Below, one piece after another: positions 124 to 19,218 of a stretch of 64,000 nucleotides of DNA. The notes beneath the pieces are model-generated. The model ran no database searches. It saw nothing but the letters and a program-made list of their open reading frames with translations, and was not told where the DNA came from. The stretch lies in the NCBI GenBank assembly GCA_041665485.1, contig JBAYIT010000001.1:73884-137883 (forward strand). Direction: 5' to 3'. Every line of letters begins with the position of its first letter. Position 1 is the stretch's first letter. The stretch is from Candidatus Shapirobacteria bacterium. GTDB lineage: Bacteria; Patescibacteriota; Microgenomatia; UBA12405. The position numbers were made by a program, and so were the translations under genes.

Positions 124-315
124 ATGCCAAAAACATATAAACCCGGTGAAATATCACCAAAATCATCCCAAGCAGAAATTATTGGTCCGCGAGGTGGGCG
201 TAGCGGAGTCGAAAGGACAGTCACAAAAGGCGAACCATTCCCTCCCGGAAGAAAGTCAGGAGAAACTTATCTGATAGTCGACCCGACTAAACATGGGCAA
301 AGGAGGGATAAATAA
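124..315 (+). CDS. small conserved hypothetical protein (63 aa)
   Basis: ORF directly upstream of, and abutting, the MBL gene. Pro/Gly-rich motif 'GPRGGRSGVERTVTKGEPFPPG...DPTKH'. No recognisable RBS was checked. Confidence 0.35.
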   Translation: MPKTYKPGEISPKSSQAEIIGPRGGRSGVERTVTKGEPFPPGRKSGETYLIVDPTKHGQRRDK

Positions 316-316
316 T

Positions 317-1372: not shown

Positions 1373-1395
1373 AAATTTGTTAGAATTAGCCTAAC

Positions 1396-2142
1396 ATGTC
1401 AGAAGATTTGAATAGTTTAAAACTAACAATTTTTGAGTTAATCAGCTATGTGTTCCCCGGCCTGTTGGTAATAATACTTGGGTTAGTATTTTTTCCGCCA
1501 GGGTTATCTATACTTAAAGACAACGTAATCTTGGTCTCATTCTTTTCCTACATAATCGGTAATTTGCTCCATCAACTAAGTGAGTCGAACCTTAATTTGA
1601 GACAGTATGGGTGGAAAATTTATCATTGGCTTAAAGAAAAAGATGAAAAAGGTCATGGAATTGAAAATCCGACAGGTCGGATAGGAAGATTAATGAAATG
1701 GTTTAGACATAAATGGTTGGAGAAAAAGAAGGACCCGATTAAAGATCTGTTGAATGTCACGGGGATCCTTAAAGAAAAGTGCAATGTAGACGAAGTCACC
1801 CCTTATGATCTGTATTTTTTAAAGGAGGCGTATCTGATAAACCAACCATCACTGGCTGGCTATTATCAATACCTTCTTTACCAAAAAATTTTTAATAAGT
1901 CATTGTCGTTGATATTTTTCTTAACCGCCGTTTTACTGATAATTTTGGATTACTTCAAAACTATTAGTGTCAATATTTATCCCGGATTATCATATTCAAT
2001 TGACGGTAAGGGATTGATCATTTCAGCAGGACTTATCTTGCTTTCCTTAGTCTTTAAAGACCGTTCTCGCTTTTTCAAAGATTATCGGGACAAAATATTG
2101 GATATGAATGTTTTAATGACTTTTGGAATGAAAAAAGCATAA
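1396..2142 (+). CDS. hypothetical integral membrane protein
   Basis: Multiple hydrophobic segments (several predicted TM helices). No recognisable catalytic motif. Confidence 0.45.
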   Translation: MSEDLNSLKLTIFELISYVFPGLLVIILGLVFFPPGLSILKDNVILVSFFSYIIGNLLHQLSESNLNLRQYGWKIYHWLKEKDEKGHGIENPTGRIGRLMKWFRHKWLEKKKDPIKDLLNVTGILKEKCNVDEVTPYDLYFLKEAYLINQPSLAGYYQYLLYQKIFNKSLSLIFFLTAVLLIILDYFKTISVNIYPGLSYSIDGKGLIISAGLILLSLVFKDRSRFFKDYRDKILDMNVLMTFGMKKA

Positions 2143-2235
2143 CCCTGGAAAGAAATCGTAGGCTTTCATTGAAGTTTATTGCTAGCAAATGTACACTCAA
2201 ACTCGTGGATCTGTCAGTAAAAAGACAACTATCTA

Positions 2236-3042
2236 TTAGTTTTCAAACACTCTCGATATCTCCCCGTAAACCTTAACCGACAGAGCCTCTTCCAAAAACT
2301 CGGAATCAAACTTTTTTACCTCGATCAACCGTCTTGCCTCATTTTTTGTCATCGATTTATTTTCGGTTAATCGATAATAGATAATTAGCCCTTCCACCAG
2401 TGAATTCTTGAGCTTTTGACTGCTATGCTGATATACGTACTGACGTAAAAATAAAGCCAAATCTTTAGTGTCAATCGGATCTGATAGCTTAATTAAATCA
2501 ATTAACACCGAGTTCGTTCTGGGAACGGGGTAGAATTTTTCTTTCCCCACTTCCATTAGCACTTTAACTTTAAAAAACGAACTAAAAACCCCATGTTCGT
2601 TGATAGTAGCCACCAGTTTCTTTGGTACCATTAGTACCACCCGGTCATAATTAATAAACGTCAAATGACCAAGCAATTGTTCGGCAAAAGAATATGGTAA
2701 ATTAGATACGATTTTGTTAAAGTCTTTCCCTTGTTTCCATCTTCCTCTTGGCAGAACGTGACCTCTGGCACTCTCAAAGTGGATTTCAACGTTGGTTGGC
2801 AAACCACTCAATATTGGCTCAAAATGCCTGTCTACCTCATAGGTAATAACCTTGCCCGCTTTAGTCGCCAACTCCCGGGTTAAATTACCAATTCCTGCTC
2901 CAATTTCCAATACCACATCATTCGAATTAATCTCTGCCATTTCAACTGTTTTCTTTATGATTTGGCTATCAGTCAGGAAAAACTGATCCAGCAAAGCATC
3001 GGGTGTAATTTTCCATTTACTTAATAACCTCTTTGCATCCAT
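2236..3042 (-). CDS. rRNA adenine N6-dimethyltransferase family (KsgA/Erm-like) paralog A
   Basis: SAM motif 'VLEIGAGIGNLT'. 'SNLPYSF' (NLPY-type motif IV). 'FYPVPRTNSVLIDL' (KsgA FxPxPKVDS-like). 'DQFFLTD' stands in place of the canonical GQNFL. Confidence 0.65.
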   Translation of the reverse strand: MDAKRLLSKWKITPDALLDQFFLTDSQIIKKTVEMAEINSNDVVLEIGAGIGNLTRELATKAGKVITYEVDRHFEPILSGLPTNVEIHFESARGHVLPRGRWKQGKDFNKIVSNLPYSFAEQLLGHLTFINYDRVVLMVPKKLVATINEHGVFSSFFKVKVLMEVGKEKFYPVPRTNSVLIDLIKLSDPIDTKDLALFLRQYVYQHSSQKLKNSLVEGLIIYYRLTENKSMTKNEARRLIEVKKFDSEFLEEALSVKVYGEISRVFEN

Positions 3043-3068
3043 ATCTAATTTTACTCTATTTTACCCTG

Positions 3069-3097
3069 TTTACAAAAGCCCTATAATAATATAAAAT
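3069..3097 (+). promoter_or_regulatory. sigma70-like promoter in divergent intergenic region
   Basis: TTTACA-17 nt-TAAAAT upstream of the 3121 start. The 78-bp intergenic region is shared with the divergently transcribed paralog. Confidence 0.35.
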
Positions 3098-3120
3098 AGA
3101 CCTATTGTTATAAACACCAT

Positions 3121-4224
3121 ATGTCTAGAACAAGAAGCCCTGAAACTCGCGAACTACCCCAAGAACCCCGTAGGACTAGACACGCCAGAATTGTTCCTAG
3201 TGTGGCCCTTGAACCTAGATTTTCGGAAGCAAATGGCGACGACGCCCCAATACTTTGGCAACCCGGCACCCCCATGGATGAAACTTTCTTAAGAGCGGCA
3301 GGAGTAATACCTAGTGAGGCAATTGGCCAAAATTTTCTCGTTGACCCTGAGCTTGTTGCCCTTGTCGCTTCCCAAATTATTCCTAACGCTCAAGTTGTAG
3401 AAATAGGCGCCGGCCCTGCCAATATGACCGCCGTTATTGCCCCAATCGTCCAAGAGGTTGTCGGTTTGGAAATCGATCCCGCCAGTTACCGACCTATTCA
3501 TGATGCCGTCTTGCCACAATTGGGTAATGCCCGCATCCTCTATCAAGACGCACTTAGTTTTAAATTTGAAAAATGGGTTGAATCACAGAGAGATGCCATT
3601 TATCAGGTGTTTGGCAATATTCCCTTTCACATTGCCGAGCCGCTTTTGGTTAAACTGGCTCGATTAGGGGATAGGGTTGACAGGATTACTTTGTTGGTGG
3701 GCGATAATTTTGCTCAAATTATGGCGATTCGGGATCCGCAAGATATTCGCTATGGCCGAATGTCTTTTGTGGCTAGCCTTTTCCAAGTCGATACTGTCGC
3801 CCAAATTCCTCGAGAGGGATTTTGGCCGGTTCCCCGCACCGATGCCACTCTTATTAACCTTACCCCCCTAGAACACGATTTAGACGGACGAGATTTGACT
3901 TTACAACTTCGTGGGCAAATTATAAATCAACCCGATCTAACGATAATTAAAGTATTAAATGGTTTTTCGCCCCGCCAAGCATCCGGCAAAATGTCGAAGG
4001 AACAAGCCCGTCGCCGTGACCGTCGACAAACTCGAGATGAACTTCGTGGTCTAACCCGACAACTTAAGCCCCAAGACGGTTATGCTTCAGGCGATAACCA
4101 ATCCCGTGTTGGTATTAGTCTTGTTACCCGTCTAGGCCTACCCCCAGAGATACTTAGCCAGCCCTTTAGTCGCTTAAATAATCAACAAGTCAGAATTCTA
4201 GCCCAAGCTATTGAAAAGTTGTAA
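3121..4224 (+). CDS. rsmA: 16S rRNA (adenine1518/1519) dimethyltransferase RsmA/KsgA-like, with N- and C-terminal extensions
   Basis: Canonical 'GQNFLVD', 'VVEIGAGPANMT', 'GNIPFHIAEP' and 'FWPVPRTDATLINL'. Noticeably more GC-rich than the flanking genes. Confidence 0.6.
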   Translation: MSRTRSPETRELPQEPRRTRHARIVPSVALEPRFSEANGDDAPILWQPGTPMDETFLRAAGVIPSEAIGQNFLVDPELVALVASQIIPNAQVVEIGAGPANMTAVIAPIVQEVVGLEIDPASYRPIHDAVLPQLGNARILYQDALSFKFEKWVESQRDAIYQVFGNIPFHIAEPLLVKLARLGDRVDRITLLVGDNFAQIMAIRDPQDIRYGRMSFVASLFQVDTVAQIPREGFWPVPRTDATLINLTPLEHDLDGRDLTLQLRGQIINQPDLTIIKVLNGFSPRQASGKMSKEQARRRDRRQTRDELRGLTRQLKPQDGYASGDNQSRVGISLVTRLGLPPEILSQPFSRLNNQQVRILAQAIEKL

Positions 4225-4237
4225 TATACAAATTTCG

Positions 4238-4882
4238 TCACTTAGTTTTTTTGGCTAGAATATAGTATCGACCTAAAGAATCCGGATATGATTTACGAGC
4301 TTTAATAATAGTAAAAAAACGCCCGATGATATGATCAACATCTTCGTTAGTAATACCAAATATTTGATCAAGCCTGTCTGGAATTTTCTCACTTTTTTTA
4401 GTTAGCGGGCAAGATAATAGGGTATTTGGTGGTCGAATGAACATTTCCAAAATAATATGTCCATCATTTTTTAATAGTCTATTAAATTCTTGATAGATCT
4501 TAGGCCAAAGGCGGGGACGGCATGAGGAAGTCATCGTTAAATCCATAATCAGATCAAAAGTGTTGCCGGGAATCGGTAAACCTTTGACAATATCTGCCTT
4601 AAATATGGTTGAATTCCTGTTCTGATTTTTAGCATATTTGACAGCCACGCTTGATATGTCGACGCCAGTAGTGTTGGTGAATCCGAGTTTTTCCAGCTTA
4701 ACCAATAACCGCCCTCGTCCACAACCGACATCCAGTATGGATGAATTCTTCTTCAAGACACCTTTTGATAATAGAGTTTTGACAAAACCAACAATATCTT
4801 CGGAAATTGGATAACATGACCAAGATGGTATGTCGTACGAGTAACGATATATTTTATTAAACCGTTTTTGATAGTCCAGCAT
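4238..4882 (-). CDS. class I SAM-dependent methyltransferase
   Basis: Motif I 'ILDVGCGRGRLL'. Overlaps the upstream aminotransferase gene by 26 nt (same-strand operon). Confidence 0.6.
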   Translation of the reverse strand: MLDYQKRFNKIYRYSYDIPSWSCYPISEDIVGFVKTLLSKGVLKKNSSILDVGCGRGRLLVKLEKLGFTNTTGVDISSVAVKYAKNQNRNSTIFKADIVKGLPIPGNTFDLIMDLTMTSSCRPRLWPKIYQEFNRLLKNDGHIILEMFIRPPNTLLSCPLTKKSEKIPDRLDQIFGITNEDVDHIIGRFFTIIKARKSYPDSLGRYYILAKKTK

Positions 4883-5987
4883 GTTTTAGCAGGATCTCTT
4901 TTAGGATTAAAACCCTTTCGACCTCGAGGAAATCTGTAGCATAGAGCTGGATGATGTTTTTTTGGATGATGCTCTCGGCATTAGCAAACTCCTCTTTTAC
5001 TTTAATATGATAAAAATCGGTTAGGATCTTATTTTTACTTAAAACAGTTTCATAGTTATGTTTTTGAGCATGGAAACCACTATTAATCAAATCTTCAATC
5101 AGATCCTTGGTATTTATATCCACCGACAACTCAATCACCGGCATATGAAAAACTCTATCTGCCTCCGGGTATGCAAGCTGAAAACTTATTTGATCAGTCG
5201 TCGACGACACCTCCCGCTGGAAGTTTAAAATATTAGTCTTTATCGTCAAACGTCGATTTTTGTTATTTTTCAAATCATGTAAGGCTAGCAATAAGGCAAA
5301 TAGGTGTGGTCTAAACTTAATGCCAACATTATTAGGAATATGTTTATAGTGGTTGGTTATTAAATCACTTGGGACTCTATTAGAGTGAGAAAAAAGCAAC
5401 GCCCTGTCGCGAAATACCGGATTATCGGTAGTTAATGCGCCAAGTTCACCTCCGCTAATCAGTTTACCTAAACCAAACGAAACACAATTAATGTCAAAAA
5501 ACTCTCCTATGGGTTTACCTCTCCACCGCGATTCATGGGCATGTGACGAATCAGAAATTATAAAGATTTTATGTTTTTTCTGTAATTGAGAAATTTTATT
5601 CAAATTGGTCAAGTTTCCCCAAGGCTGTAGAACCATTATCGCCAGAGTATTGTCATTGACAAGTTTGTCACACTTATCGACATCTAAAGCATAAGTTGCC
5701 GGATCAACATCACAAAAGACTGGTTTTAATCCAAAGGCGCAAATAACACTAATACTGACATGAAATCCGTAAGTTGGAATAATCACTTCCTTTTTATCAC
5801 TTTCCAGAGAAAGACAAAAAAGGGCTAGATACAGCGCCGAAGTGCCATTACATGTCGAAACACCAAACTTGTTGCCAAATAGTTTAGCCGCCTCGTTTTC
5901 AAACTCCTCCATGTAACCACCCTTAACTGTCGATAGCCAATTATCTTTAATACAGCGATCTATCTGTTCGAGATAGCTACTTGTCAT
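4857..5987 (-). CDS. DegT/DnrJ/EryC1/StrS-family PLP-dependent sugar aminotransferase
   Basis: N-terminal 'FGVSTCNGTSALYLAL' motif typical of DegT-family aminotransferases. Size about 376 aa. Confidence 0.7.
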   Translation of the reverse strand: MTSSYLEQIDRCIKDNWLSTVKGGYMEEFENEAAKLFGNKFGVSTCNGTSALYLALFCLSLESDKKEVIIPTYGFHVSISVICAFGLKPVFCDVDPATYALDVDKCDKLVNDNTLAIMVLQPWGNLTNLNKISQLQKKHKIFIISDSSHAHESRWRGKPIGEFFDINCVSFGLGKLISGGELGALTTDNPVFRDRALLFSHSNRVPSDLITNHYKHIPNNVGIKFRPHLFALLLALHDLKNNKNRRLTIKTNILNFQREVSSTTDQISFQLAYPEADRVFHMPVIELSVDINTKDLIEDLINSGFHAQKHNYETVLSKNKILTDFYHIKVKEEFANAESIIQKNIIQLYATDFLEVERVLILKEILLKHAGLSKTV

Positions 5988-5991
5988 GTTT

Positions 5992-7020
5992 TTATCGGTA
6001 ACATTGATATAATTTTAAAACTACCGTCAATGTTTTAAGCGCATCTTCTGGCTCCATAAACAATGACTTCGATTTTCCACAAACGACATTGAAAAAGTCT
6101 CCCATCTGCTCACGATGTTTAGTTCCATAGTAACTTACTGGTGGCGGTTCCGTAAATTTATCCGCATATGATTCCAATAACTCGCCCAACGTTTTAGCTA
6201 CTTCCGGATCCTCGTGGATAAGATGGATTACTTTAACGGGATAATCGGCCGAGAAAGTAATGGTTCCTTTGGTGCCAATTACTTCAATTTTTGAATCCCA
6301 GATATCGATAGAGGTGTTGGTTGTCGACAATATTGCCAAGCTCTCATCGGCAAATTTCATAATTGAAGCAAAAGTATCTTCTGTTTCAATAATCCCTTTA
6401 AATTTTAAATTAGAGCCAAAGGCTCCGACATCAACCGGCAAGCCTTTGATCCAAAGCAATAAATCTAAGGTATGGATAGCTTGGTTAATTAGAGTAGAAC
6501 CGCCCTCTTTGTCCAGTTTCCCTTTCCAGTAACTATTGGTGTAATACTCTTTATTTTTTTGGCTGTTTAGAGTTGCATTTACCATGGTGATGGCGCCGAA
6601 GGTGCCGGAATCAATCGCCTTTTTAATTTCCATGATTACCCGGTTGTACCGGTGCTGTGAAATCACCGTCAAAACATTGTGGTGCATTTTGGCCGTGGCA
6701 ATCATTCTTTCCGCATCTTGAACACTTAAGGCCATTGGCTTCTCAACAATAACATTTTTACCCGATTCCAACGCCCTGATTGCTAAATCAGCATGGCTTT
6801 TATGATCTGTACAGATCGAAACGGAATCAATTGAGCTATTAGCCAAGACTTCTTCAAATGAATTTGCTACCGATGCTATTTTGTGAGTGTCAGCAAATTT
6901 TTTGGCTTTTTCAATATCAAGATCGCAACAAGCGGCAATGGTTATGTTGTTGTGGATACATCCGTCAACATGGCTTGGAGCAATATGTCCGCAACCGATA
7001 ATGGCGTGCTTAATGTTCAT
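5992..7020 (-). CDS. Gfo/Idh/MocA-family NAD(P)-dependent oxidoreductase
   Basis: N-terminal Rossmann 'IGCGHIA' motif and typical family length. It pairs with the DegT aminotransferase in the manner of WbpB/WbpE-type sugar 3-oxidation and transamination. Confidence 0.7.
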   Translation of the reverse strand: MNIKHAIIGCGHIAPSHVDGCIHNNITIAACCDLDIEKAKKFADTHKIASVANSFEEVLANSSIDSVSICTDHKSHADLAIRALESGKNVIVEKPMALSVQDAERMIATAKMHHNVLTVISQHRYNRVIMEIKKAIDSGTFGAITMVNATLNSQKNKEYYTNSYWKGKLDKEGGSTLINQAIHTLDLLLWIKGLPVDVGAFGSNLKFKGIIETEDTFASIMKFADESLAILSTTNTSIDIWDSKIEVIGTKGTITFSADYPVKVIHLIHEDPEVAKTLGELLESYADKFTEPPPVSYYGTKHREQMGDFFNVVCGKSKSLFMEPEDALKTLTVVLKLYQCYR

Positions 7021-7028
7021 TTTTTTGT

Positions 7029-7943
7029 TTATAAATTAGTATTAGAATTAACTTCGTTAATTAAAATTTGAGCCCAAACGTCAGTTTTGTTTTGAGCCAG
7101 GTGAAGTATTTTTACCCCCGCCAAACTCTCTCTGATCTCTTGCGGACTGGGATTTGTTTTCTTCATTATTTCTTCAAGTGCATGTCCCGGCATAAAATTC
7201 CACGCCAGTGGTAATTCTCTTACTGTCAACTCGTTCTCCAATTGGTCGATGGCTAGCCATAAACAAAGTTGGTCATTGGGGATAAAACTATTTTTGTTTT
7301 TTCCGGTTAACATTTGTAAATAGAATTTTTTCCACAATCCAGCTAGGATGCGGATACCATCAGAAGAGCCGTAGATTATTCCTCCGTTCCAACATCTAAT
7401 ATTTAGTAACCTTTCCGCTGAGTAGTTGGTTTCAAAAGTGTTATTAACCAAATCAGCCATTTGTTGAGCCGATAATTGTGAACTGTCTTTAAAATACAGC
7501 CAACTAATGTCTGTTATGGATAATCTTCCCGGTCGACGTAATAATAAATAAACTACCGGTTTGTTGCTGTCACCAACTTCTAATTCTGTCGTTATCTTGT
7601 CCACATCTTCTAGGGCTAGAATATCGCTGTCGATGTACATTAGAGAATTAAAATTCTCGTCACTCATCGACTCTAATTTTGCGATTCTGGTGAGTGAGTG
7701 TTCGAGCTCACTGGTCGCACCAAGTGATTCTTTTAAATCTTGAGGCACTTTCACTTTCTTTATCTGGCAATATTGATCTCCCTGATCGGTTATATTTTTT
7801 ATATTACTACAGCTATAAACGTGGATAGGTAAATGGCTGTTAAGTTTTCTTATACTTCGAATGGCTGTTTTAAGGTAGGTTGTATATTTCTCGTCACTTG
7901 CCATCACTAGGCCAAAGGGTTGTTTTACTTTTTTGGGAATCAT
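7029..7943 (-). CDS. nucleotide-diphospho-sugar transferase, GT8-like glycosyltransferase (tentative)
   Basis: N-terminal 'VMASDEKYTTYL', DxD-like 'YIDSDILALEDV' and 'WNGGIIYGS' resemble the glycogenin/LPS galactosyltransferase family 8 layout. Confidence 0.45.
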   Translation of the reverse strand: MIPKKVKQPFGLVMASDEKYTTYLKTAIRSIRKLNSHLPIHVYSCSNIKNITDQGDQYCQIKKVKVPQDLKESLGATSELEHSLTRIAKLESMSDENFNSLMYIDSDILALEDVDKITTELEVGDSNKPVVYLLLRRPGRLSITDISWLYFKDSSQLSAQQMADLVNNTFETNYSAERLLNIRCWNGGIIYGSSDGIRILAGLWKKFYLQMLTGKNKNSFIPNDQLCLWLAIDQLENELTVRELPLAWNFMPGHALEEIMKKTNPSPQEIRESLAGVKILHLAQNKTDVWAQILINEVNSNTNL

Positions 7944-7976
7944 GAATATGTTTTATGAATAATTAATAATTTACCT

Positions 7977-8696
7977 TTAATTATCTTTTGTTGTTTCAAT
8001 AAAATTAGCTTCAAGCAGAAACTGCATCACTTTAATGGCAGTTTCCGAATATTTACCGTTGTTGTCAATGATGACATAGGAGCCATTTGGTAACAACCGA
8101 CTTTGTCGAAGAATTTCATCCTGGATTGCAAGCAGTTTGTCGTTCGAATATCGCTTTCTTAAAGTTTGATTATCACCAAAAAGTTTCTTTTCATTTGAAT
8201 TGAGTTTTGTCTCGTTGACCGTTAGTATGATTAGCTTACTATTTTTCTTTAGATATGGAGCAATAATTGTTGGGTTAAGCTGGACTCCCTCAAAAAGAAC
8301 GTTTTGAGCGCCTTGAACTTCTAGTTTGGGAATAATACTATCTAACAAAGAACACACCCCTTCAGAATAACGGTTATAACCCTTGATTAGATTATTTTTG
8401 GAATACAGACCATCTCCAATTAGTTTATAACTATCACAAGATCCAAGGAAAACATAAGGGTTTCTCATCTCTTTAACTTTTAGGTTTTCTATTTCTTGAG
8501 ACACGAGGCGCAGGACGTCCATCGACTGGAGGACACAACTTTCAATAGAACCCGATATTAGTGGGGCAATTGTTGACTTTCCTGATAGGGGAACCCCGGT
8601 CATAAAAAGAGCCGTATTGGGTAAGGTAAATTTATACTTTGGCTTAAGTATCGTAAAATGTGTTTTTATTGTATTATTCTTCATCTTTCCAAACAT
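7977..8696 (-). CDS. P-loop NTPase / putative kinase
   Basis: Walker A 'GVPLSGKST'. No further family assignment is possible by eye. Confidence 0.5.
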   Translation of the reverse strand: MFGKMKNNTIKTHFTILKPKYKFTLPNTALFMTGVPLSGKSTIAPLISGSIESCVLQSMDVLRLVSQEIENLKVKEMRNPYVFLGSCDSYKLIGDGLYSKNNLIKGYNRYSEGVCSLLDSIIPKLEVQGAQNVLFEGVQLNPTIIAPYLKKNSKLIILTVNETKLNSNEKKLFGDNQTLRKRYSNDKLLAIQDEILRQSRLLPNGSYVIIDNNGKYSETAIKVMQFLLEANFIETTKDN

Positions 8697-9969
8697 CCTT
8701 CTCTCTTTTGAGCTTTAATAAATGAACCAGTCTGTCTTTTGATTTTTTCTGCAGACCATTGTCGTTTGGTCTATTTAGGTTTTCAAGAACAATCTCGGCG
8801 ACGGTTTGAGTTTCGGTTTCGGTGTAGCCCCTCGCGGTTATCCAAGATGTTCCCAGCCTGATGCCGCTGGCCACATAAGGCTTTAATGTTTCGCCCGGCA
8901 CTACCTGTCTGTTGGTCAAAATTCCAATATTTTCCAAGTTAGTTTCCGCCTCTTTTCCGGTCAGATTAAAAGTCTTTAGGGTATTTAAAACCATTAAATG
9001 AGTGTCACTTCCGCCCGTAACCATAAGTTCGGGGTATTGTCCAAACACCTTTTCAAAAACTTTAATATTCGTTATCACCCTGGAAACATAGTCCTTAAAC
9101 CAAGGCTTACCAGAATCTATCAAGCATTGGGCTATTTCATAAATACGCCTTAATGGCACGCTTGATTGAACGCCGGGATGGACAGCTCTGTCAATATCCT
9201 CTTTCAGAGATTCTTTGCACAAAATAATGCCGCCATGTGGCCCCAACATGGTTTTATCAAGAGTTAACGTGACCACATCACAATAAGGAAATGGCTTTGG
9301 AAATTTTTCACCCACGATCAAACCGGCAGGGTGCGATAAATCAGCCATTAAATAAGCTCCAACCCGCCTTGAGATATCCGCCAATTTGCCAAAGTCTATT
9401 GTTCTTGGATATGAAGACGCTCCGCAGACAATTAGTTTAGGTTTAAATTCTTTTGCTTGCTTCCTGATGGCGTCATAATCTATCCACCCGTCATTTCCAA
9501 CTCCATAAAAATCAAAATTAAAGAATCTTCCTGAGAAGTTTTTCTTCATTCCATGGGTTAAATGTCCTCCGGCTTCAAACTTCATCGCCAAAACCCTGTC
9601 TCCGTTCTCCAGTAGCCCTTGATACACAGCCTGATTTGCCTGGCTAACCGAATGTGGCTGCACATTGGCATGTTCTGCCCCAAATAATTCACAAGCCACC
9701 TCGGTGGCTATTCTTTCAATCCGGTTAAATCCTTCAGCTCCGGCATAAGGTCTGTGTTCAAGAAGACCTTCGGCAATACTGGCATGCCTAAGGGGAATGT
9801 CGATATATTTTCGAAGAGTCGGGCTGGCCGGAGCAATCAGATTTGTCGTTATTAGGTCATACTGATCCTGCATCTTAGCCGCTAAAACCAACTCCTTTTC
9901 TTTTTCCTGATAATATTTTTTATTATTTTTCACTCTTGGATTAAGCCTAAGATTCTGACTTATAAGCAA
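8674..9969 (-). CDS. glyA: serine hydroxymethyltransferase
   Basis: Strong collinear similarity to SHMT: 'NVQPHSVSQAN', 'GGHLTHG', 'ADLSHPAGLI', PLP-lysine region 'TLDKTMLGPHGG' and 'GSDTHLMVLN'. The N-terminal 'ENY' region is diverged. Confidence 0.85.
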   Translation of the reverse strand: MLISQNLRLNPRVKNNKKYYQEKEKELVLAAKMQDQYDLITTNLIAPASPTLRKYIDIPLRHASIAEGLLEHRPYAGAEGFNRIERIATEVACELFGAEHANVQPHSVSQANQAVYQGLLENGDRVLAMKFEAGGHLTHGMKKNFSGRFFNFDFYGVGNDGWIDYDAIRKQAKEFKPKLIVCGASSYPRTIDFGKLADISRRVGAYLMADLSHPAGLIVGEKFPKPFPYCDVVTLTLDKTMLGPHGGIILCKESLKEDIDRAVHPGVQSSVPLRRIYEIAQCLIDSGKPWFKDYVSRVITNIKVFEKVFGQYPELMVTGGSDTHLMVLNTLKTFNLTGKEAETNLENIGILTNRQVVPGETLKPYVASGIRLGTSWITARGYTETETQTVAEIVLENLNRPNDNGLQKKSKDRLVHLLKLKREKDVWKDEE

Positions 9970-10642
9970 TCGGGTCTTTCATCAGATTCAGCTCAAAGGC
10001 TTCAATTCTGGCCTTACAGTTACTACAATGGCCGCAAGCAACCTCTGTTCCGTTATGGCAGGACCAGGTAAATTCAAACGGAACCTTCATGTTGTTACCC
10101 AATTTTATTGCCCCGGTTTTATCCGTTTCGGTCAGTGGGTGAAAAATCTTAATGTCTTTCTTCAACATCGTTCCCTTTTCAACTACTTTTTGGTAAGCAT
10201 CAATAAATTCAGGACTATTGTCTGGGCATATGTGGTCGCCTCCGGTTGACCCAACTACAATTATGTCCGCACCTTGGACCTCCGCCAAAGCCGTAGCTAC
10301 CCCAAGGAATATCGAATTTCGAAAAGGAACATATTCCAATCGAAAGTTTCTCTCATCAAGCGGTATATTTTTATCCAGCAATGCCGAACCGCCAAAATTT
10401 TTGATCCAAGGAAGATCTACTTTGTAAACTTGTTTAACTTTCCAATGTTTGACTAATTGATCCAAGCACCACTCTTCTTTTTCTGCTGTTTTTTGTCCAT
10501 ATCTAAGAAATAAAAAAATCGGCTGATAACCCTGCTCGATGGCCATCGCCGTCGCCACTGTGCTGTCTAAACCACCACTAATTAAACAAACTGCCTTTTT
10601 TTGTTCAGTTGTCATTATGTCCTCCTTTTTGGACCAAACCAT
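9947..10642 (-). CDS. queC: 7-cyano-7-deazaguanine synthase
   Basis: PP-loop 'LISGGLDST' and C-terminal zinc motif 'CGHCSNCKAR'. Confidence 0.85.
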   Translation of the reverse strand: MVWSKKEDIMTTEQKKAVCLISGGLDSTVATAMAIEQGYQPIFLFLRYGQKTAEKEEWCLDQLVKHWKVKQVYKVDLPWIKNFGGSALLDKNIPLDERNFRLEYVPFRNSIFLGVATALAEVQGADIIVVGSTGGDHICPDNSPEFIDAYQKVVEKGTMLKKDIKIFHPLTETDKTGAIKLGNNMKVPFEFTWSCHNGTEVACGHCSNCKARIEAFELNLMKDPIAYKSES

Positions 10643-11430
10643 ATTAATTGATTTCTCTCAATAATTCTCCACCCTCGGCTATTTGTGTCTTTTTGAACCA
10701 ACGTCTGATGTTCGGTCACTGCCTCTTTAGTTAATCCTTCCGGCATTATTAAGACCCTTTTGGGGTTTAAGTTACAACTTTCAACTATTTCTTCGATTTC
10801 CTTCAGATCTTCAACTCGGCTGACGACAAATTTAAACCATCCAACTGGCCACCCATTAATCAGACTTAAAACCTCGGGCCTAAATCTCAATTTTTTCTCA
10901 TTACCACTGTTGGCTAATTTGGGTGAACAGTTTATTTGACATTGAATCAATTCTGGACTCGGTTTGATCGTGCCATTGGTTTCAATTTCCACTTGCCAAT
11001 CTTTCATTTGGTTTAACAACTTAACAATCAAGTCTTGTTGTAACAAGGGTTCACCGCCGGTTATGACCACCCTTTTTTGGATATTTTTATCCAGCCCAAA
11101 TTTATCCACCCAAGCTTTTTCAATTTCTATTTTTGTTTTTTCTATACTCCAATCTTCTGGTTCCTGCCAGTATTCCGCTCTTTTGGTGTCCCACGTATAT
11201 CCTGTGTCACACCTCCATCCGTTTGGAAAACCACAATGAAGGTTACAAAACTGTAATCTTAAAAACACTGCCGGGCAACCAGCGGTACCTCCTTCAGATT
11301 CCAGTAGACCTTCTCCCTGAAGGGTAGCAAACACTTTATCTCCCGACACTTTAAAAAAATCGAGCTTCCGAGCTGACTTTAACAAGTCACCCTTAGTGGG
11401 TTTATAAACAACGCTAGATTGTTTTTTCAT
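10615..11430 (-). CDS. queE: 7-carboxy-7-deazaguanine synthase (radical SAM)
   Basis: QueE-type cluster motif 'CNLHCGFPNGWRCDTGYTWD' and 'ITGGEPLL'. Confidence 0.8.
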   Translation of the reverse strand: MKKQSSVVYKPTKGDLLKSARKLDFFKVSGDKVFATLQGEGLLESEGGTAGCPAVFLRLQFCNLHCGFPNGWRCDTGYTWDTKRAEYWQEPEDWSIEKTKIEIEKAWVDKFGLDKNIQKRVVITGGEPLLQQDLIVKLLNQMKDWQVEIETNGTIKPSPELIQCQINCSPKLANSGNEKKLRFRPEVLSLINGWPVGWFKFVVSRVEDLKEIEEIVESCNLNPKRVLIMPEGLTKEAVTEHQTLVQKDTNSRGWRIIERNQLIWFGPKRRT

Positions 11431-11550
11431 TTGCAGGTTTTATTGGCTCACCTTCGTGAGGTCCTGCTACCGCTGTAGGTTTTAATGGTCCGCCCATTAA
11501 GAGCGGGACACCTACCACCGTAGTTGGGAGAATCTTAGCTAATTGCAATA
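11431..11550 (-). promoter_or_regulatory. promoter (TTGACA-17-TAAGAT) plus roughly 95-nt structured leader of the queE operon
   Basis: Read on the minus strand: 'TTGACAAAGATATTGCAATTAGCTAAGAT', then leader hairpins CUACGGUGGUAG, CCGCUC-UUAAU-GGGCGG, CUACAGCGGUAG and CUCAC-GAAG-GUGAG before the ATG. Confidence 0.5.
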
Positions 11551-11603
11551 TCTTTGTCAAGATACATGTTTTTTACGAACAGAGAGATGATCGCCCTATG
11601 TTT

Positions 11604-11801
11604 TTATGAGATAATCCAGCGATCTAACAATGTATTTGGTGAAACTCCAGCCTTTCTGGCATTAATTGTTGTCTGATTTATTGCTCGACCGTTTGGTGTT
11701 TGAGGTGTGCCCTTTCGATAAATTTTATCTATTGTTTCTCGGCTCATTCTTTTTAAAAATATTTCGGGATTGTCTTGAAAACCGAGGGAAGTGGAGAACA
11801 A
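11604..11801 (-). pseudogene. ORF fragment / gene remnant downstream of the disrupted helicase
   Basis: A 65-aa ORF with an HTH-like tail 'ARKAGVSPNTLLDRW'. Neighbouring frames contain only short broken ORFs. Confidence 0.25.
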
Positions 11802-11919
11802 AAATTTTGTTTCTGGGGAAAAATCATAAAACGATTTTAAAACTGCCTTTTGTCTGTCTTTTGGGAGTGTAAAAAAGTGCTGATCAACTTGGAAAATGGC
11901 GTGATCATTTCATATTTTA

Positions 11920-14097
11920 TCAAAAAAGTCCCAACTGGTTTTCACAATTAATTTTCTTTTTAGCTGGACTAAAAATTTTATTTAGTCCCAAAGTTCGGTA
12001 AGTTCGTAAACGTTTGAAATACATAATTTTAAGCATTGGTACTTGATCATCAAAATAGTCATAAATCGTAGCGTTGGTTTTTCCCTCAAAACTTCGTTGA
12101 ACTCTACCCACATATTGGATTAGTTTTCCTTTCCACGAAAACGGAAAAGCTAAAAATAGATGTGACACTGCCGGCCAATCAAAACCTTCGCCGATTAATT
12201 TACCCGTAGCAATTAGTAGTTAAAATTGTTTTTGGTTAATTCGTTTAGCAATTCGTTCTCTCTGCTTTTTAGTCATCACTCCAGTAGCTATGGCAGCCTG
12301 AACACCTTTAGTTTATTGTCGAATGAGATCCAGTAGTGTGTGACAGTGGTCGAGACGTTCAGTTAATACTAAGCACTTAGCTCCGGTATTTAACGCATCG
12401 ATAATATCGTCAGTAATTTGATTGTTACGATCAGGGTCGGATATAACTAATCGACAGGCTTCTTGAAAATCTTCTAATTTTACATTAGCTTTAAACTGTG
12501 TTTTTCGAGTGATTAAATCGGTTTTTACGATTTGGTTGGAGTTTTCACTGTTATCAATATTTTCCGTAGTTGCTTTGACTATTTGATAGCTAACATACAA
12601 AAACATCAGTTTTTCTAATTTATCTTTACGATAAGTGGTGGCGGTTAATCCTAAAACATGTTTAGAAGGGAATTGTCTGACGACAGTACTAAAAGTATTG
12701 GCCGGGGCATGATGGCATTCGTCAATAATAATTAACCCAAAATCATTTTTAATTTCATCAACCCCTCGTCTGGATAAAGTCATGTAGGAAGCAATGGTTA
12801 CTTTTTTACCAACACTCCATTTGTTATCGCCAATAATGCCTATATCAAGTTTTGAAAGAGAAAAATAATCAGTAATTCGTTTTTGCCATTGATGGAGCAG
12901 AGTGTTAGTGTGAACAATAATTAAAGTTTTTTGACCCAGTTTTTTCATTAACGCTAGAGCGACCATAGTTTTACCAAAACCAGGTTGAGCTTCCAAAATA
13001 ACTCGGTCATGAGGTAGTAACTGATGTAAAACTTGTTTTTGATCTTTACGAAGGATCAGTTTAGACGGGAAACGTACTTGTTTTGTAGTTACTCGATTAT
13101 CAACAGCCTCGATTTTTATCTGTTCTTTTTGACAAAATTTATTTAGTTTTTCCAAAAATCCCAAAGGAACTCCTATTCCATCTGGCAATCTCTCGAGGGT
13201 TTTAATAAATCGAGGGGTGTTCCAAGTGGAATAACCAAATCGTTCTTTGGTGTAAAAGTCAGGGTTGGGAAAATTTAATTCTTTTTTGAGGTATTTATAC
13301 AGTTTGTCGGGTAAATGAGTGCTAGGAATAAATATGTTTGACCCTAAAATCAATTTAGTTTCTTGATTTTGAGTTGTGGTAACAGGTAGCTCTTCAACAT
13401 TTTCATCGGGCTGGTTAGGCAGATCGTCGATTGTTTTATTGCTGGATAGTTGAAGATATTGATTGATTTCTTGTAAAGATGTTCTTCGAATTGACTGTAG
13501 ATATTGCCATTGATCAGGAATCTCTTGACCATCTGAGTTAATAAAAACGGTTGTGTTGTTTGTGACAAATTTCCCATTAAGTGGCAAACAAATTAAATTT
13601 CCATAACCTTTACCGGTATGTTCATCTTGGCTGGGAAACATTCGATCAAATGTTTTTCGATCTTGGACTCCTGCCTGGTTTAATAGTAATTTACCCATTT
13701 GTCGGGCTAGATGAGCCGGAATTTGCCCGTTAAAGAAAAACCAGACATGACCACCATTGCCCGATTTTGACCGTTCTATGGCACAAAATAGATCATTGTT
13801 AAAAGCTTTAATGGTTACTTTTTGAGCCAAAATCAACCAATCTGGTCCGTCAAAATCGATGGCTAAAAAAGTAGTGGTGTTGTCTGGAAATAATGGATAA
13901 ACGCCAATTACCTGTTTTCCGTCTAAGTGTGATTGAATAACCGAATCTGTCAATGCTAAGGGGCTTTGATTTAGTCGAAAAACTGGAGCGTAACCAGACT
14001 TCTTCTTCGGTAAATCTTCCCAATAACGGGCAAAGACATCGTCTCGGGTGTCAAAGAGAGAACGATAAAGTTTAATATTTTCAGCCGAAATGCTCAT
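11920..14097 (-). pseudogene. primase-polymerase (AEP) / SF2 DExH helicase fusion, disrupted by two in-frame TAA codons
   Basis: N-terminal AEP motifs 'LAIDFDG', 'SKSGNGGHVWFFF' and 'ICLPLNGK'. Helicase motif I 'QPGFGKTM', motif II 'DECHH', motif VI 'QYVGRVQR' and 'LLIATGKLIGEGFDWP'. A single frame runs from 14097 to 11920 and is interrupted only by TAA at 12313-12315 and 12220-12222. Confidence 0.6.
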
Positions 14098-14278
14098 AAA
14101 TCTCTAGTATTTTACCTCTTAAAGAGCAATAATCCAACAATCTCCCTACAGATTGGCAGTTTCGTGCTTCTATATATCAAACAGTATCACTGTTTTAAGA
14201 CACTCCTTTTTTATGGTGTCTCATTTGTCTCGTTTAGCTTCAAAACTTTAATAGAATGAGACAGTGGGGAAGAGGGTG

Positions 14279-14326
14279 TTATAAGGACAGAAAGGTTCCA
14301 GACCCTAATGCTCCGCCAGATGAATA
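14279..14326 (+). repeat. copy 1 of the conserved intergenic motif of about 45 nt
   Basis: See the copy at 27010-27055. Confidence 0.55.
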
Positions 14327-14514
14327 AAAAAAATCAAGCCATAATTCGTATGAAAGAATTAGATGGCGATACTCCTGAAAGAATTAACGAACTAAAGACT
14401 CTTCTTGAAGACTCAGAAAAAGGTGAGAGGATAGATTCTATTAAGTCTTGGCTTACTATTGGAATTTCTATTGTCGCTTTGATAATTAGTGTTTTAGTTG
14501 CTGTTTTTAAGTAG
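14308..14514 (+). CDS. small membrane-anchored protein
   Basis: C-terminal TM segment 'WLTIGISIVALIISVLVAVF'. The start may be the ATG at 14320. Its 5' region is a repeated motif also found at 27010. Confidence 0.4.
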   Translation: MLRQMNKKNQAIIRMKELDGDTPERINELKTLLEDSEKGERIDSIKSWLTIGISIVALIISVLVAVFK

Positions 14515-14600
14515 TTAATTCATACGTATAAATAGCTTCCAAACCCGCCTGTTTCGAGCCTGCTGAGAGAAGTGCAATGGGGTGGTGATAAAATTGTCGC

Positions 14601-15002
14601 ATGGAAGACTGTATTTTTTGTAAAATTATTGCTGGTCAAGCAAGATCTTGGAAAGTTTTTGAGAACAATTTCGTATATGCATTTTTAGATATTCATCCAG
14701 CAAATAAATACCACGCCCTAGTTGTCCCCAAAAAACATTATAAAAATATTTTTGATATTCCTGAAGAAGAATTCCTGGAAGTAATGAAAGTAGTGAAAAA
14801 ATTAACAACTTTATATAACACCAAATTAGGAATAGAAAATGTTCAAATAATTAATAGTTCTGGGTCGGAAGCTCAACAGGATGTATTCCACTGTCATTTT
14901 CATATCGTTCCAAGAAGGCTGGGGGATGGACAAGATGTCAAATGGATCACCCACCCAGAATGGGTTGAAGAATATGACCGAATGTTGTTAGATATTCGAT
15001 AG
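14601..15002 (+). CDS. HIT-family (histidine triad) nucleotide hydrolase
   Basis: Histidine triad 'HCHFHIVPR' and N-terminal 'CIFCKII'. Confidence 0.8.
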   Translation: MEDCIFCKIIAGQARSWKVFENNFVYAFLDIHPANKYHALVVPKKHYKNIFDIPEEEFLEVMKVVKKLTTLYNTKLGIENVQIINSSGSEAQQDVFHCHFHIVPRRLGDGQDVKWITHPEWVEEYDRMLLDIR

Positions 15003-15053
15003 GAGTTAATAAGGGTGGAACGAAAAACAAAGAATTTATGCTAAGATGGAGAT

Positions 15054-18060: not shown

Positions 18061-18873
18061 ATGGACATAAAAACAATATTGGATAAATATGGGATTAAGC
18101 CGGATCCGCAGAAGGACCAGTTCTTTTTGACTGATGAGGAAATAATTGAAAAGACGGTGAAGGTGGCTGATATTAATGAAGATGACACAGTGCTAGAAAT
18201 TGGTGCAGGACTGGGAAACTTAACGACCGAATTGGCAAAAAAGGCTAAAAGAGTAATAAGTTTTGAAATTGACAGAGCGTTTGAGCCAATATTGAGCCAA
18301 CTACCCAAAAACGTAGAAACACATTTCGAAAATGCCTGGGAATATGTGCAACTTCATGGTAAATGGAGGAAAACTAAAGAATACAACAAGGTGGTGGCTA
18401 ATATCCCCTATTCTTTTGCCGAACAATTGTTACATAATTTCACCTTTTTGATGTATGACAAAATAGTTTTGTTGGTGCCAAAAAAATTTTTGGGGAGTGT
18501 TAAAAGACATGGTATTTTTAGCTCGTTTTTTGAACCAAAACTGATACTGGAGGTGGATAGAACAAAATTTTTCCCGGTGCCACGAACCGATTCGGTTTTG
18601 ATTGATTTGGTTAAATTGCCCGACCCTTTGAAAAACAGGGATTTGGCCTTATTTTTAAGGCAGTATGTATATCAACACGAAGATCAAAAAGTTAGAAATT
18701 CATTAATGGAGGGAATAATTACTTACAAATGGTTAGCGTTGGAAGAAACAATGACGAAAAACGAGGCGAGAAAAATGGTTAAAGATAGTGGAATTGATTT
18801 AAATTTATTAGAAACTCAACCCGGTGATAAAATTTATGAAGAAATTAGTAGGGTTAAGTGGATGGTAGACTAA
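18061..18873 (+). CDS. rRNA adenine dimethyltransferase family (KsgA/Erm-like) paralog B
   Basis: Roughly 60% identical by eye to the protein at 2236-3042. Shares 'DQFFLTDEEII', 'VLEIGAGLGNLT', 'ANIPYSFAEQLL' and 'FFPVPRTDSVLIDL'. Confidence 0.65.
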   Translation: MDIKTILDKYGIKPDPQKDQFFLTDEEIIEKTVKVADINEDDTVLEIGAGLGNLTTELAKKAKRVISFEIDRAFEPILSQLPKNVETHFENAWEYVQLHGKWRKTKEYNKVVANIPYSFAEQLLHNFTFLMYDKIVLLVPKKFLGSVKRHGIFSSFFEPKLILEVDRTKFFPVPRTDSVLIDLVKLPDPLKNRDLALFLRQYVYQHEDQKVRNSLMEGIITYKWLALEETMTKNEARKMVKDSGIDLNLLETQPGDKIYEEISRVKWMVD

Positions 18874-18876
18874 ATT

Positions 18877-19218
18877 ATGAAGAAATTTTTGAAAGGATTT
18901 GAATATGCAGGGAAAGGAGTAATGGAGGGATTTGGAGGGAGAAATATGAAGATTCACGGAATAATCGGAGTATCGGTGATATTGGTTGGATTAGCGATGG
19001 GGCTGGAGAGGTGGGAGTGGGTGGCAGTATTTTTGGCGATTGGATTGGTGATGGGGGCAGAGCTCTTTAACAGCAGTATTGAGGAATTAGCCAACGTGGT
19101 GAGAGACGAAAACAAATTGGCTTACGAGGCAACCAGAAAAGTCCGAGATTTGGCGGCGGGGGCAGTGCTGGTGGCGGCAATTATGGCGGGTATTGTGGGT
19201 ATAGTAGTCCTTCTTTAA
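18877..19218 (+). CDS. dgkA: diacylglycerol / undecaprenol kinase
   Basis: 'GAELFNSSIEELAN' DgkA signature and three TM segments. 113 aa. Confidence 0.75.
   Translation: MKKFLKGFEYAGKGVMEGFGGRNMKIHGIIGVSVILVGLAMGLERWEWVAVFLAIGLVMGAELFNSSIEELANVVRDENKLAYEATRKVRDLAAGAVLVAAIMAGIVGIVVLL

What the first reader, a model, noticed from the sequence alone, without database searches (positions are those of the whole stretch)
11604..14097. Primase-polymerase/helicase fusion gene inactivated by exactly two in-frame TAA codons, next to degraded ORF fragments (decaying mobile-element replication module?)
A single reading frame of 726 codons (14097 to 11920, minus strand) encodes an N-terminal archaeo-eukaryotic-primase-type prim-pol domain (DxD 'IDFDG', 'SGNGGHVWFFF') fused to a DExH SF2 helicase with motifs I, II and VI. 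It is interrupted only by TAA at 12313-12315 and 12220-12222, with no frameshifts. Prim-pol/helicase fusions are typical replication initiators of plasmids, integrative elements and phage satellites. Downstream (11604-11900) lie only short broken ORFs, one with an HTH-like tail. No integrase or att-site tRNA is seen. This looks like a recently inactivated mobile-element remnant inserted beside the que operon. The less likely alternative is a helicase partner of a deazaguanine DNA-modification system.
Basis: seen in the sequence. Interest (0 to 1): 0.55.

Follow-up and report, generated by a model that had tools for sequence, protein, structure and literature searches.

The report
Recently broken primase-helicase defence-island gene
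This is a recently inactivated copy of a known primase-polymerase/helicase fusion gene, together with its decayed small partner gene, in a horizontally acquired island of an uncultivated Shapirobacteria genome; it is an ordinary pseudogene, not a plasmid or phage replication module.

Summary
On the minus strand, 14097-11920 is one 726-codon frame broken only by TAA at 12313-12315 and 12220-12222. Both codons are identical in four assemblies, so they are not assembly errors. [quoted passage not shown] Hundreds of intact 725-740 aa homologues exist in Patescibacteria (best 84% identity). The stops replace conserved Lys595 and Gln626 by single-base changes. No other decay is visible, so inactivation is recent. 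The truncated product lacks helicase motifs V-VI. The downstream 'broken ORFs' are a remnant of a conserved 177-179 aa partner gene, with a frameshift in a T-run and its 3' end deleted.

This architecture is AEP+SF2, not the AEP+SF3 of replication initiators. No full-length copy occurs in 50,697 phage records. Homologues on plasmids and chromosomes sit among toxin-antitoxin, restriction and abortive-infection genes. The que-like genes are never neighbours elsewhere. The whole region of at least 22 kb lacks the host's strong GC skew, so it is a foreign, variable island. This is a new member (a pseudogene) of a known kind, of low interest.

The parts
11920..14097 (-). Pseudogene of a 725-aa primase-polymerase / SF2 helicase fusion (whole conceptual frame, including the terminal TGA at 11920-11922)
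   Evidence: Single frame. Intact homologues are 725-740 aa, best 84% identity.
13459..14082 (-). AEP primase-polymerase domain (aa 6-213). Catalytic motifs are intact: D81-x-D83, S112-G-x-G-G-H117, FPSQD158
   Evidence: PF22548 at E 9e-64. PADLOC PrimPol PDLC01465 at E 8e-53. PDB CAPP 7nqd by sequence and by fold, TM 0.76-0.82. Invariant columns.
13078..13380 (-). XPB-type N-terminal (damage-recognition-like) domain of the helicase module, about aa 240-340. It follows a variable, low-confidence linker (about aa 217-240).
   Evidence: Phage helicase-only hits start at aa 240-264. XPB/UvsW alignments cover it. pLDDT profile of the model.
12631..13059 (-). SF2 helicase RecA1 lobe (aa 347-489): Walker A PGFGKT, motif II DECHH, motif III TAT
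   Evidence: ResIII at E 6e-26 and DEAD at E 2e-13. Invariant G375, K376, D459-H462, T485-T487.
12094..12405 (-). SF2 helicase RecA2 lobe (Helicase_C, aa 565-668). It contains both premature stops; motifs V (ATGKLIGEGFD) and VI (QYVGRVQR) lie downstream of them.
   Evidence: Helicase_C at E 4e-11. Alignment.
12313..12315 (-). Premature stop 1: TAA at codon 595, replacing conserved Lys (AAA in the closest relative)
   Evidence: Present in four assemblies.
12220..12222 (-). Premature stop 2: TAA at codon 626, replacing conserved Gln (CAG/CAA in relatives)
   Evidence: Present in four assemblies.
11604..11908 (-). Remnant of the conserved 177-179 aa accessory gene. ATG at 11908-11906; frameshift in the T-run at about 11871-11876; only aa 1-101 retained. 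The called 65-aa ORF is 11604-11801.
   Evidence: tblastn of the L088 177-aa protein: aa 1-13 at 11908-11870, aa 12-101 at 11876-11607, 64% identity. The family is 28 Patescibacteria proteins of 177-183 aa. It is linked to the helicase in L088 and L096.
11600..11625 (.). Breakpoint: DNA homology with the closest intact locus (L088) ends at about 11,622. About 76 codons of the accessory gene's 3' end are missing and unrelated que-like genes follow.
   Evidence: blastn L088 1-2632 against window 14237-11622. L088 continues with different genes.
15000..15053 (.). Right edge of the compositionally foreign island. To the right, genes on either strand have GC3 skew +0.33 to +0.68. To the left, for at least 22 kb, they do not.

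Best explanation
The locus is a recently pseudogenised, stand-alone 'conflict/defence-island' gene.

What it encodes (shown). The intact protein has a CAPP_A-type primase-polymerase domain (Pfam AEP-TOTE). It is joined by a flexible linker to an XPB/UvsW-like SF2 DNA translocase that carries its own N-terminal DNA-recognition domain.

How intact relatives probably work (inferred from the characterised relatives CAPP and XPB/UvsW). The translocase would open or remodel duplex or branched DNA. The prim-pol domain would then prime and extend DNA on the exposed strand.

What the gene probably does (inferred). Its genomic company suggests an action on invading or damaged DNA, not replication of an element.

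What happened in this genome (shown). In this Candidatus Shapirobacteria genome the gene arrived with a foreign island of at least 22 kb. Two point mutations (AAA->TAA at Lys595; CAA/CAG->TAA at Gln626) now end translation inside the second RecA lobe. The only product is a 594-aa protein with a complete prim-pol domain but no helicase motifs V and VI, so the motor is dead. The adjacent 177-aa accessory gene has also decayed (frameshift plus 3' deletion). The AAA_14/DUF4143 ATPase gene that flanks the gene in several related CPR (Candidate Phyla Radiation, Patescibacteria) genomes is absent. The module is therefore being lost, and the loss is recent.
For: Domain identity.

Organism and family:
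- The exact 594-aa ORF is annotated in a Ca. Shapirobacteria MAG on a 411,674-bp contig. Hundreds of intact homologues of 725-740 aa exist.
- At least 589 loci occur across many phyla.

Nonsense substitutions at conserved Lys and Gln. Reproducible in four assemblies. TAA is the normal stop.

Recency:
- Only 3 of 299 columns invariant in the 10 closest homologues are changed, against 4-21 in intact homologues left out one at a time.
- dN/dS against the closest relative is 0.082 before and 0.043 after the first stop, with dS about 1.

Partner-gene decay and breakpoint. AAA_14/DUF4143 neighbour in L082, L085, L091 and L092 but not here.

Defence-island company.

Foreign composition of window 1-15,000 plus 7.3 kb to the left.

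Prior description: the architecture is the 'CAPP-Helicase' type, and it is the most prevalent architecture of non-CRISPR CAPP homologues (PMC8211822).
Against: - No experiment links this family to defence. PADLOC has no system built on it; the only hits are a cas-accessory PrimPol model and generic helicase models.
- Neighbours are variable and no partner is strictly conserved; the commonest family occurs in 8 of 145 neighbours. The 'defence' label is therefore guilt by association.
- Two nonsense mutations 31 codons apart with no other detectable damage is mildly unexpected under simple neutral decay: probability about 1-23% depending on assumptions.
- The 594-aa product keeps a complete prim-pol domain, so some residual activity cannot be excluded.
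Confidence: 0.85

Rival explanations
1. One reading: this is a decaying replication module (replication-initiator primase-helicase) of a plasmid, integrative element or phage satellite that inserted next to a resident que operon.
For: AEP-helicase fusions of other kinds are replication initiators (established knowledge; see PMC11724360). [quoted passage not shown] One relative (L087) has a tyrosine integrase and a serine recombinase within 4 kb. There are 98 full-length plasmid copies. The locus lies in foreign DNA.
Against: The helicase is SF2 and XPB-like, not SF3/D5/PriCT. None of 50,697 phage records holds a full-length copy. The two plasmid copies inspected lie in TA/RM/CBASS cargo regions of large plasmids, each of which carries a typed replicon. 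There is no integrase, no att-like repeat and no tRNA-derived repeat around the locus. The que-like cluster is itself part of the foreign region.
Confidence: 0.08
2. The gene is still functional. Either the two TAA codons are read through or suppressed, or the 594-aa prim-pol-only product (possibly together with a C-terminal fragment) retains a role.
For: The sequence after the stops is as conserved as the rest (dN/dS 0.043). There are no other lesions in the 726 codons. Two stops without other decay is mildly improbable by chance. The AEP domain is complete in the 594-aa ORF.
Against: dS to the nearest relative is about 1, so recent relaxation would be invisible. TAA terminates most genes in the window, and TAA is recognised by both release factors (established knowledge). 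Motif V lies between stop 2 and the first possible restart (GTG at 12168/12111), so it cannot be translated. The neighbouring accessory gene is frameshifted and truncated. None of the four tRNAs in the window is a suppressor.
Confidence: 0.05
3. The helicase is a partner of a 7-deazaguanine (Dpd-like) DNA-modification system encoded by the adjacent QueE/QueC-like genes.
For: It is adjacent and co-oriented with a QueE-like radical SAM gene and QueC. Dpd systems do contain SF2 helicases (PMC12458937).
Against: No QueC/QueE/SHMT homologue lies near the gene in 91 other loci. The junction is a deletion breakpoint. No TGT/DpdA, FolE or QueD was found among the adjacent genes. DpdE scores 18 bits against a cutoff of 500. 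QueE scores 80 bits against cutoffs of 200-300.
Confidence: 0.01
4. The stops are sequencing or assembly artefacts and the gene is intact.
For: The source is a metagenome-assembled genome. Three of the four contigs break within or just upstream of the gene.
Against: Four assemblies made with different assemblers, from at least three different runs or samples, are 100% identical over the region, including both TAA codons and the frameshift in the partner gene.
Confidence: 0.01

Closest known systems
CAPP_A 'CAPP-Helicase' type primase-polymerases and their non-CRISPR homologues (Zabrady et al. 2021, PMC8211822); Pfam PF22548 AEP-TOTE
   Same: [quoted passage not shown] PF22548 scores 215.7 bits. 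The PADLOC cas-accessory PrimPol model hits at E 8e-53. The fold matches the Marinitoga CAPP prim-pol domain at TM 0.76-0.82 and 24-25% identity. Homologues at 33-37% identity over the full length occur in Neobacillus, Bacillus and Paenibacillus, the group from which the type example comes.
   Different: There are no cas genes or CRISPR array here. The NCBIfam type-A1 CAPP model is below cutoff (116.6 against 200). This copy is a pseudogene. It belongs to a well-separated Patescibacteria clade that is 50-84% identical within itself.
TOTE conflict systems (TPR, OB, TBP, Effector; Aravind, Iyer & Burroughs 2022, as summarised in PMC12458937)
   Same: The AEP domain belongs to the Pfam family named after these systems.
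   Different: No TPR, cold-shock/OB or TBP-domain gene lies next to the gene in the window. None appears among the 25 commonest families in 145 immediate neighbours of 80 homologous loci. The original description could not be read.
XPB/Rad25, T4 UvsW and RadD SF2 DNA translocases
   Same: These are the best sequence and fold matches for aa 240-700, including the N-terminal domain that precedes RecA1. Phage UvsW-like helicases align from aa 240-264 onward.
   Different: None of these is fused to a primase-polymerase. NCBIfam scores are far below the equivalog cutoffs (XPB 91 against 610; RadD 71 against 720).
Replication-initiator primase-helicases of plasmids, ICEs and satellites (pRN1 ORF904, P4 alpha-like, AgaPP with a PriCT-DUF3987 helicase)
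   Same: An AEP prim-pol is combined with a helicase and carried on horizontally moving DNA.
   Different: Those use SF3/D5-type or PriCT-associated helicases and sit in replication modules (PMC11724360). Here the helicase is SF2, and the context is TA, RM and Abi genes.

Membership tests
AEP primase-polymerase, CAPP_A / AEP-TOTE clade (PF22548) | Match to the family profile above the curated cutoff | tested here: met
   215.7 bits against a cutoff of 27, aa 6-213 covering profile positions 1-229 of 230.
AEP primase-polymerase, CAPP_A / AEP-TOTE clade (PF22548) | Catalytic motifs I (DxD), II (sxH) and III (hD) present | tested here: met
   D81/D83, S112...H117 and D158 all lie in columns invariant or more than 90% conserved in 19-38 homologues.
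AEP primase-polymerase, CAPP_A / AEP-TOTE clade (PF22548) | Prim-pol fold like the solved CAPP domain | tested here: met
   The model of the closest intact homologue (84% identical, pLDDT 82.6) matches 7nqd/7nqe/7p9j at TM(target) 0.76-0.82.
AEP primase-polymerase, CAPP_A / AEP-TOTE clade (PF22548) | Primase and polymerase activity | not testable with these tools
   Needs biochemistry.
CRISPR-associated Prim-Pol (CAPP) in the strict sense | Located in a CRISPR-Cas operon (cas1/cas2, array) | tested here: not met
   No cas domains in the flanking genes. No repeat array in the 64 kb.
CRISPR-associated Prim-Pol (CAPP) in the strict sense | NCBIfam NF040561 (type A1) above cutoff | tested here: not met
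   116.6 bits against a cutoff of 200.
TOTE conflict system | Operonic TPR, OB/cold-shock and TBP-domain partner genes | tested here: not met
   The adjacent genes are a 68-aa ORF, HIT, the accessory-gene remnant and QueE-like. None of these domains is among the top families in 145 neighbours of 80 loci.
SF2 XPB/UvsW-like helicase | Motifs I, II, III, V and VI in one polypeptide | tested here: not met
   All motifs are present in the conceptual read-through, but motifs V and VI lie downstream of the TAA codons, so no single ORF holds them.
MGE replication-initiator primase-helicase | SF3/D5/PriCT-type helicase partner or domain | tested here: not met
   Only SF2 families hit (ResIII, DEAD, Helicase_C, SNF2-rel; XPB, RadD, UvsW).
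MGE replication-initiator primase-helicase | Residence in phage, satellite or plasmid replication modules | tested here: not met
   None of 50,697 phage records is full-length. The plasmid copies inspected lie among HigB, HipA, CBASS-like and type I RM genes.
Dpd / 7-deazaguanine DNA-modification system | DpdA (TGT-like) present, and conserved linkage of the helicase with que genes | tested here: not met
   No TGT domain in the adjacent genes. None of 91 other loci has QueC/QueE nearby. DpdE scores 18 bits against a cutoff of 500.
Pseudogene | Reproducible in-frame stops at positions that are sense codons in orthologues | tested here: met
   Lys595 and Gln626 are conserved in 18 homologues. 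Both stops are identical in four assemblies.

The most novel reading that the evidence does not exclude
The Patescibacteria clade of this gene may be the core of an uncharacterised CPR-specific immune or DNA-damage module. It would comprise the prim-pol/XPB-like helicase, a divergently transcribed AAA_14-DUF4143 ATPase and a small 177-aa (marginally DUF6155-like) accessory protein. The module would be costly enough to be switched off again and again by clean nonsense mutations. Two independent cases were seen: two TAA codons here, and TGG->TGA at the invariant Trp198 in another lineage. The prim-pol-only truncation might keep a function.
Probability: 0.1. Interest if true: 0.45.

Novelty: new member of a known kind. 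Interest (0 to 1): 0.15.

Why it matters
It matters little on its own. It documents a recent loss of an accessory gene in a reduced-genome CPR bacterium. It also corrects an annotation: the public record calls the 594-aa fragment a 'DEAD/DEAH box helicase family protein'.

The wider family is more interesting than this copy. A prim-pol fused to an XPB-like translocase is widespread: at least 589 loci in GTDB (Genome Taxonomy Database) species representatives and 98 plasmids. It is consistently embedded in defence-island-like neighbourhoods. It has no experimentally established role. The intact CPR homologues, with their recurrent AAA_14-DUF4143 and 177-aa neighbours, would be reasonable candidates for a defence screen.

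Tried and rejected
- Genome-wide TAA reassignment: rejected. TAA ends 34 of 56 long ORFs, and same-frame adjacent ORF pairs are ordinary gene neighbours.
- Gene-conversion or clustered-mutation origin of the two stops: rejected. The 93 nt between them differ from relatives only by the usual synonymous changes.
- Replication origin at the GC-skew switch near 12-14 kb: rejected. The left side does not show the mirror-image skew, and the neutral skew continues 7.3 kb beyond the window. This is a foreign island, not an origin.
- tRNA-Arg at 15626 as an att site: no tRNA-derived or boundary direct repeats were found, and a host-skew gene lies between it and the island.
- Homology of the window's downstream region to the Gottesmanbacteria downstream genes (240 aa, DUF6155 128 aa) or to the AAA_14 ATPase: none.
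- Similarity of the 177-aa protein to DUF6155: marginal only (E 0.017), so not claimed.
- Homology between the 240-aa and 301-aa neighbours: not supported.
- Rfam: only the four tRNAs.
- The original TOTE description (Aravind et al. 2022) is not in the library, so TOTE features are taken second-hand from PMC12458937.
- L091's truncated copy was set aside as a likely long-read frameshift artefact, because neighbouring DnaG and BacA are also split.
Full report
OBSERVATION.

Translating the minus strand from 14097 gives a single frame of 725 codons ending at TGA (11922-11920). It is interrupted only by TAA at 12313-12315 (codon 595) and 12220-12222 (codon 626), with no frameshift. The closest intact homologue aligns end to end in one frame at 84% identity.

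Pfam places AEP-TOTE (PF22548) at aa 6-213 (E 9e-64), ResIII/DEAD at aa 347-489 and Helicase_C at aa 565-668.

The stops are not artefacts. Four assemblies are 100% identical across the region, including both TAA codons: a MEGAHIT contig in ENA ERZ27249449, Logan SRR6484324, JGI 3300037810 and Logan SRR18595301. TAA is the commonest real stop in the window (34 of 56 long ORFs), and nothing suggests recoding.

WHAT THE GENE IS.

The exact 594-aa ORF is on record as a 'DEAD/DEAH box helicase family protein' of a Candidatus Shapirobacteria MAG, on a 411,674-bp contig. Hundreds of intact proteins of 725-740 aa with the same architecture occur in Patescibacteria (Shapiro-, Roizman-, Gottesman- and Andersenbacteria, Saccharimonadia) at 45-84% identity. 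More distant full-length relatives (33-37%) occur in at least 589 loci across Bacteroidota, Pseudomonadota, Bacillota, Acidobacteriota and other phyla.

By sequence and by fold, the N-terminal domain is closest to the prim-pol domain of the CRISPR-associated Prim-Pol of Marinitoga (7nqd and related entries; TM 0.76-0.82). For the fold comparison I used an AlphaFold model of the 84%-identical intact homologue (pLDDT 82.6). The C-terminal two-thirds is closest to archaeal and eukaryotic XPB, T4 UvsW and RadD, including the N-terminal domain that precedes RecA1.

This is the 'CAPP-Helicase' architecture. Zabrady et al. describe it as the third CAPP_A type and as the most prevalent architecture of non-CRISPR CAPP homologues (PMC8211822). 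The Pfam name refers to TOTE (TPR, OB, TBP, Effector) conflict systems (PMC12458937).

THE LESIONS.

- Codon 595 aligns with a conserved Lys (AAA in the nearest relative). Codon 626 aligns with a conserved Gln (CAG/CAA). Each stop is one substitution away, and the 93 nt between them look normal.
- Both stops lie in the second RecA lobe, upstream of motifs V and VI. The only long ORF therefore encodes a complete prim-pol domain with a dead motor. Motif V cannot be reached from any restart codon.
- Otherwise the gene is pristine. Only 3 of 299 columns invariant in the ten closest homologues are changed, fewer than in any intact homologue left out in turn (4-21).
- dN/dS against the nearest relative is 0.082 before and 0.043 after the first stop, at dS about 1. 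Inactivation is therefore recent.
- Under a simple neutral model, acquiring a second stop with so little other damage has a probability of roughly 1-23%. That is mildly unusual but not evidence for anything beyond chance.

THE DOWNSTREAM 'BROKEN ORFS'.

In the nearest relative (L088) the helicase gene is followed by a 177-aa gene. The window keeps its start (ATG 11908-11906) and aa 1-13 in one frame, and aa 12-101 in another (11876-11607, 64% identity). This implies a one-base change in the T-run at about 11871-11876. DNA homology ends at about 11,622, so roughly 76 codons are gone and unrelated genes follow.

The family is small: 28 Patescibacteria proteins, 27 of 137-199 aa (mostly 177-183) and one of 306 aa (P0135). 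It has no Pfam assignment, and its similarity to DUF6155 is only marginal. It is linked to the helicase gene in at least L088 and L096.

A divergently transcribed AAA_14-DUF4143 ATPase flanks the gene in four CPR contexts but is absent here. The module is therefore decaying as a whole. This argues against the idea that the stops are tolerated.

CONTEXT.

Genes to the right of 15,054 show an extreme replication-type GC3 skew (+0.33 to +0.68 on the plus strand, whichever strand they are on). Everything from the window start to about 15,000 lacks it, as does a further 7.3 kb to the left recovered from a JGI contig.

This region of at least 22 kb carries:
- an Eco57I-like restriction-modification gene;
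- a Schlafen/AlbA_2 gene;
- an ImmA/IrrE-HTH pair;
- Erm/KsgA-like methyltransferases;
- a sugar/QueC/QueE-like cluster;
- at its right edge, the pseudogene.

It is a foreign, variable island, not a native que operon with an insertion. No integrase, att-like repeat, CRISPR array or Rfam element marks the locus.

MOBILE-ELEMENT REPLICATION MODULE?

The evidence is against it.
- The helicase is SF2, not the SF3/D5/PriCT type of replication initiators.
- No phage record out of 50,697 holds a full-length homologue. Phage hits are helicase-only, from aa 240-264 onward.
- The 98 plasmid copies are carried as cargo. The two inspected are on plasmids of 78 kb and 296 kb, next to HigB/HigA-like, HipA, CBASS-like, NYN, WYL and type I restriction genes.
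- In 80 chromosomal loci the immediate neighbours are AbiEii (8), Fic (5), DUF6088 (4), AbiEi (3), DUF4143 (3), Schlafen/AlbA_2 (3), then RhuM, ParE, PIN, IS66 and resolvase (2 each). No partner is strictly conserved, and no TPR, OB or TBP genes appear.

This is the signature of a stand-alone defence-island gene. It remains guilt by association, because PADLOC has no system built on this protein.

DEAZAGUANINE PARTNER?

No. None of 91 other loci has QueC, QueE or SHMT nearby. The junction is a deletion breakpoint. No TGT/DpdA was found among the adjacent genes. The DpdE model scores 18 bits against a cutoff of 500.

MECHANISM.

Shown: the domain identities, intact catalytic motifs in the prim-pol domain, and loss of motifs V and VI from the only ORF.

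Inferred from characterised relatives (CAPP is a DNA-dependent primase-polymerase; XPB and UvsW open or remodel duplex and branched DNA): intact family members couple ATP-driven DNA opening to priming and DNA synthesis. Given their neighbourhoods, they probably act on invading or damaged DNA. Here that function has just been lost.

VERDICT.

It is a new member (a pseudogene) of a known kind. Interest is low.

Noticed in passing
window 15,054-64,000 versus 1-15,000; L094:1-7319: The host genome has an unusually strong replication-type skew: GC3 skew +0.33 to +0.68 on the plus strand for genes on either strand. A region of at least 22 kb ending at about 15,000 lacks it and has lower GC3. The left extension carries Eco57I-like RM, SLFN_AlbA_2 and ImmA/IrrE+HTH genes. 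The left boundary of the island was not reached.
   Followed up: partly
window 2236-11430 (mostly minus strand): There is a co-oriented cluster:
- QueE-like radical SAM (80 bits, far below the QueE cutoffs);
- QueC (140.8 bits against a cutoff of 150.3);
- an SHMT-like enzyme;
- a 239-aa kinase-like unknown;
- GT8;
- a GFO/IDH/MocA oxidoreductase;
- a DegT-type aminotransferase;
- a SAM methyltransferase;
- two Erm/KsgA-like rRNA adenine methyltransferases.
No FolE, QueD or TGT/DpdA was seen. It resembles a modified-nucleoside or amino-sugar pathway with possible self-resistance genes, which is unusual for a CPR genome.
   Followed up: partly
L092:5146-7359 and L093:215-2435: An independent pseudogene of the same family in another Microgenomates lineage (six contigs). 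It has a single TGG->TGA change at the invariant Trp198 of the DQW motif, which splits the gene into a 197-aa AEP ORF and a 452-aa helicase ORF.
   Followed up: partly
L082:8603-9898, L085:8619-9902, L091:4616-5662, L092:3780-5066: A divergently transcribed AAA_14 + DUF4143 ATPase (348-431 aa) lies immediately upstream of the prim-pol/helicase gene in four CPR contexts. The same family is also a neighbour in several non-CPR loci. It may be a functional partner. It is absent from the window.
   Followed up: partly
L096:6483-10714: Here the 179-aa accessory gene follows a PD-(D/E)xK/Cas4-like nuclease gene and converges on an intact 729-aa prim-pol/helicase gene. They sit beside a type I restriction system, an HNH gene and a Phd/YefM antitoxin.
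   Followed up: no
window about 13,294, 13,512 and 14,302: Three of the four assemblies of this strain break inside or just upstream of the prim-pol/helicase gene. This suggests graph tangles caused by related copies in co-occurring organisms, or strain variation at this locus.
   Followed up: no
window 18061-18873 (+): A third Erm/KsgA-like rRNA adenine dimethylase paralogue lies in the host-skew region. It is followed in the same frame by a 113-aa ORF (18877-19218) after a single TAA. This is probably just two adjacent genes.
   Followed up: no
L091:1-2645: This long-read-style contig (ERZ1286166 contig_3847) has DnaG and BacA split into fragments as well as the prim-pol/helicase. Its truncated copy is therefore probably an assembly frameshift artefact, not a pseudogene.
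   Followed up: partly
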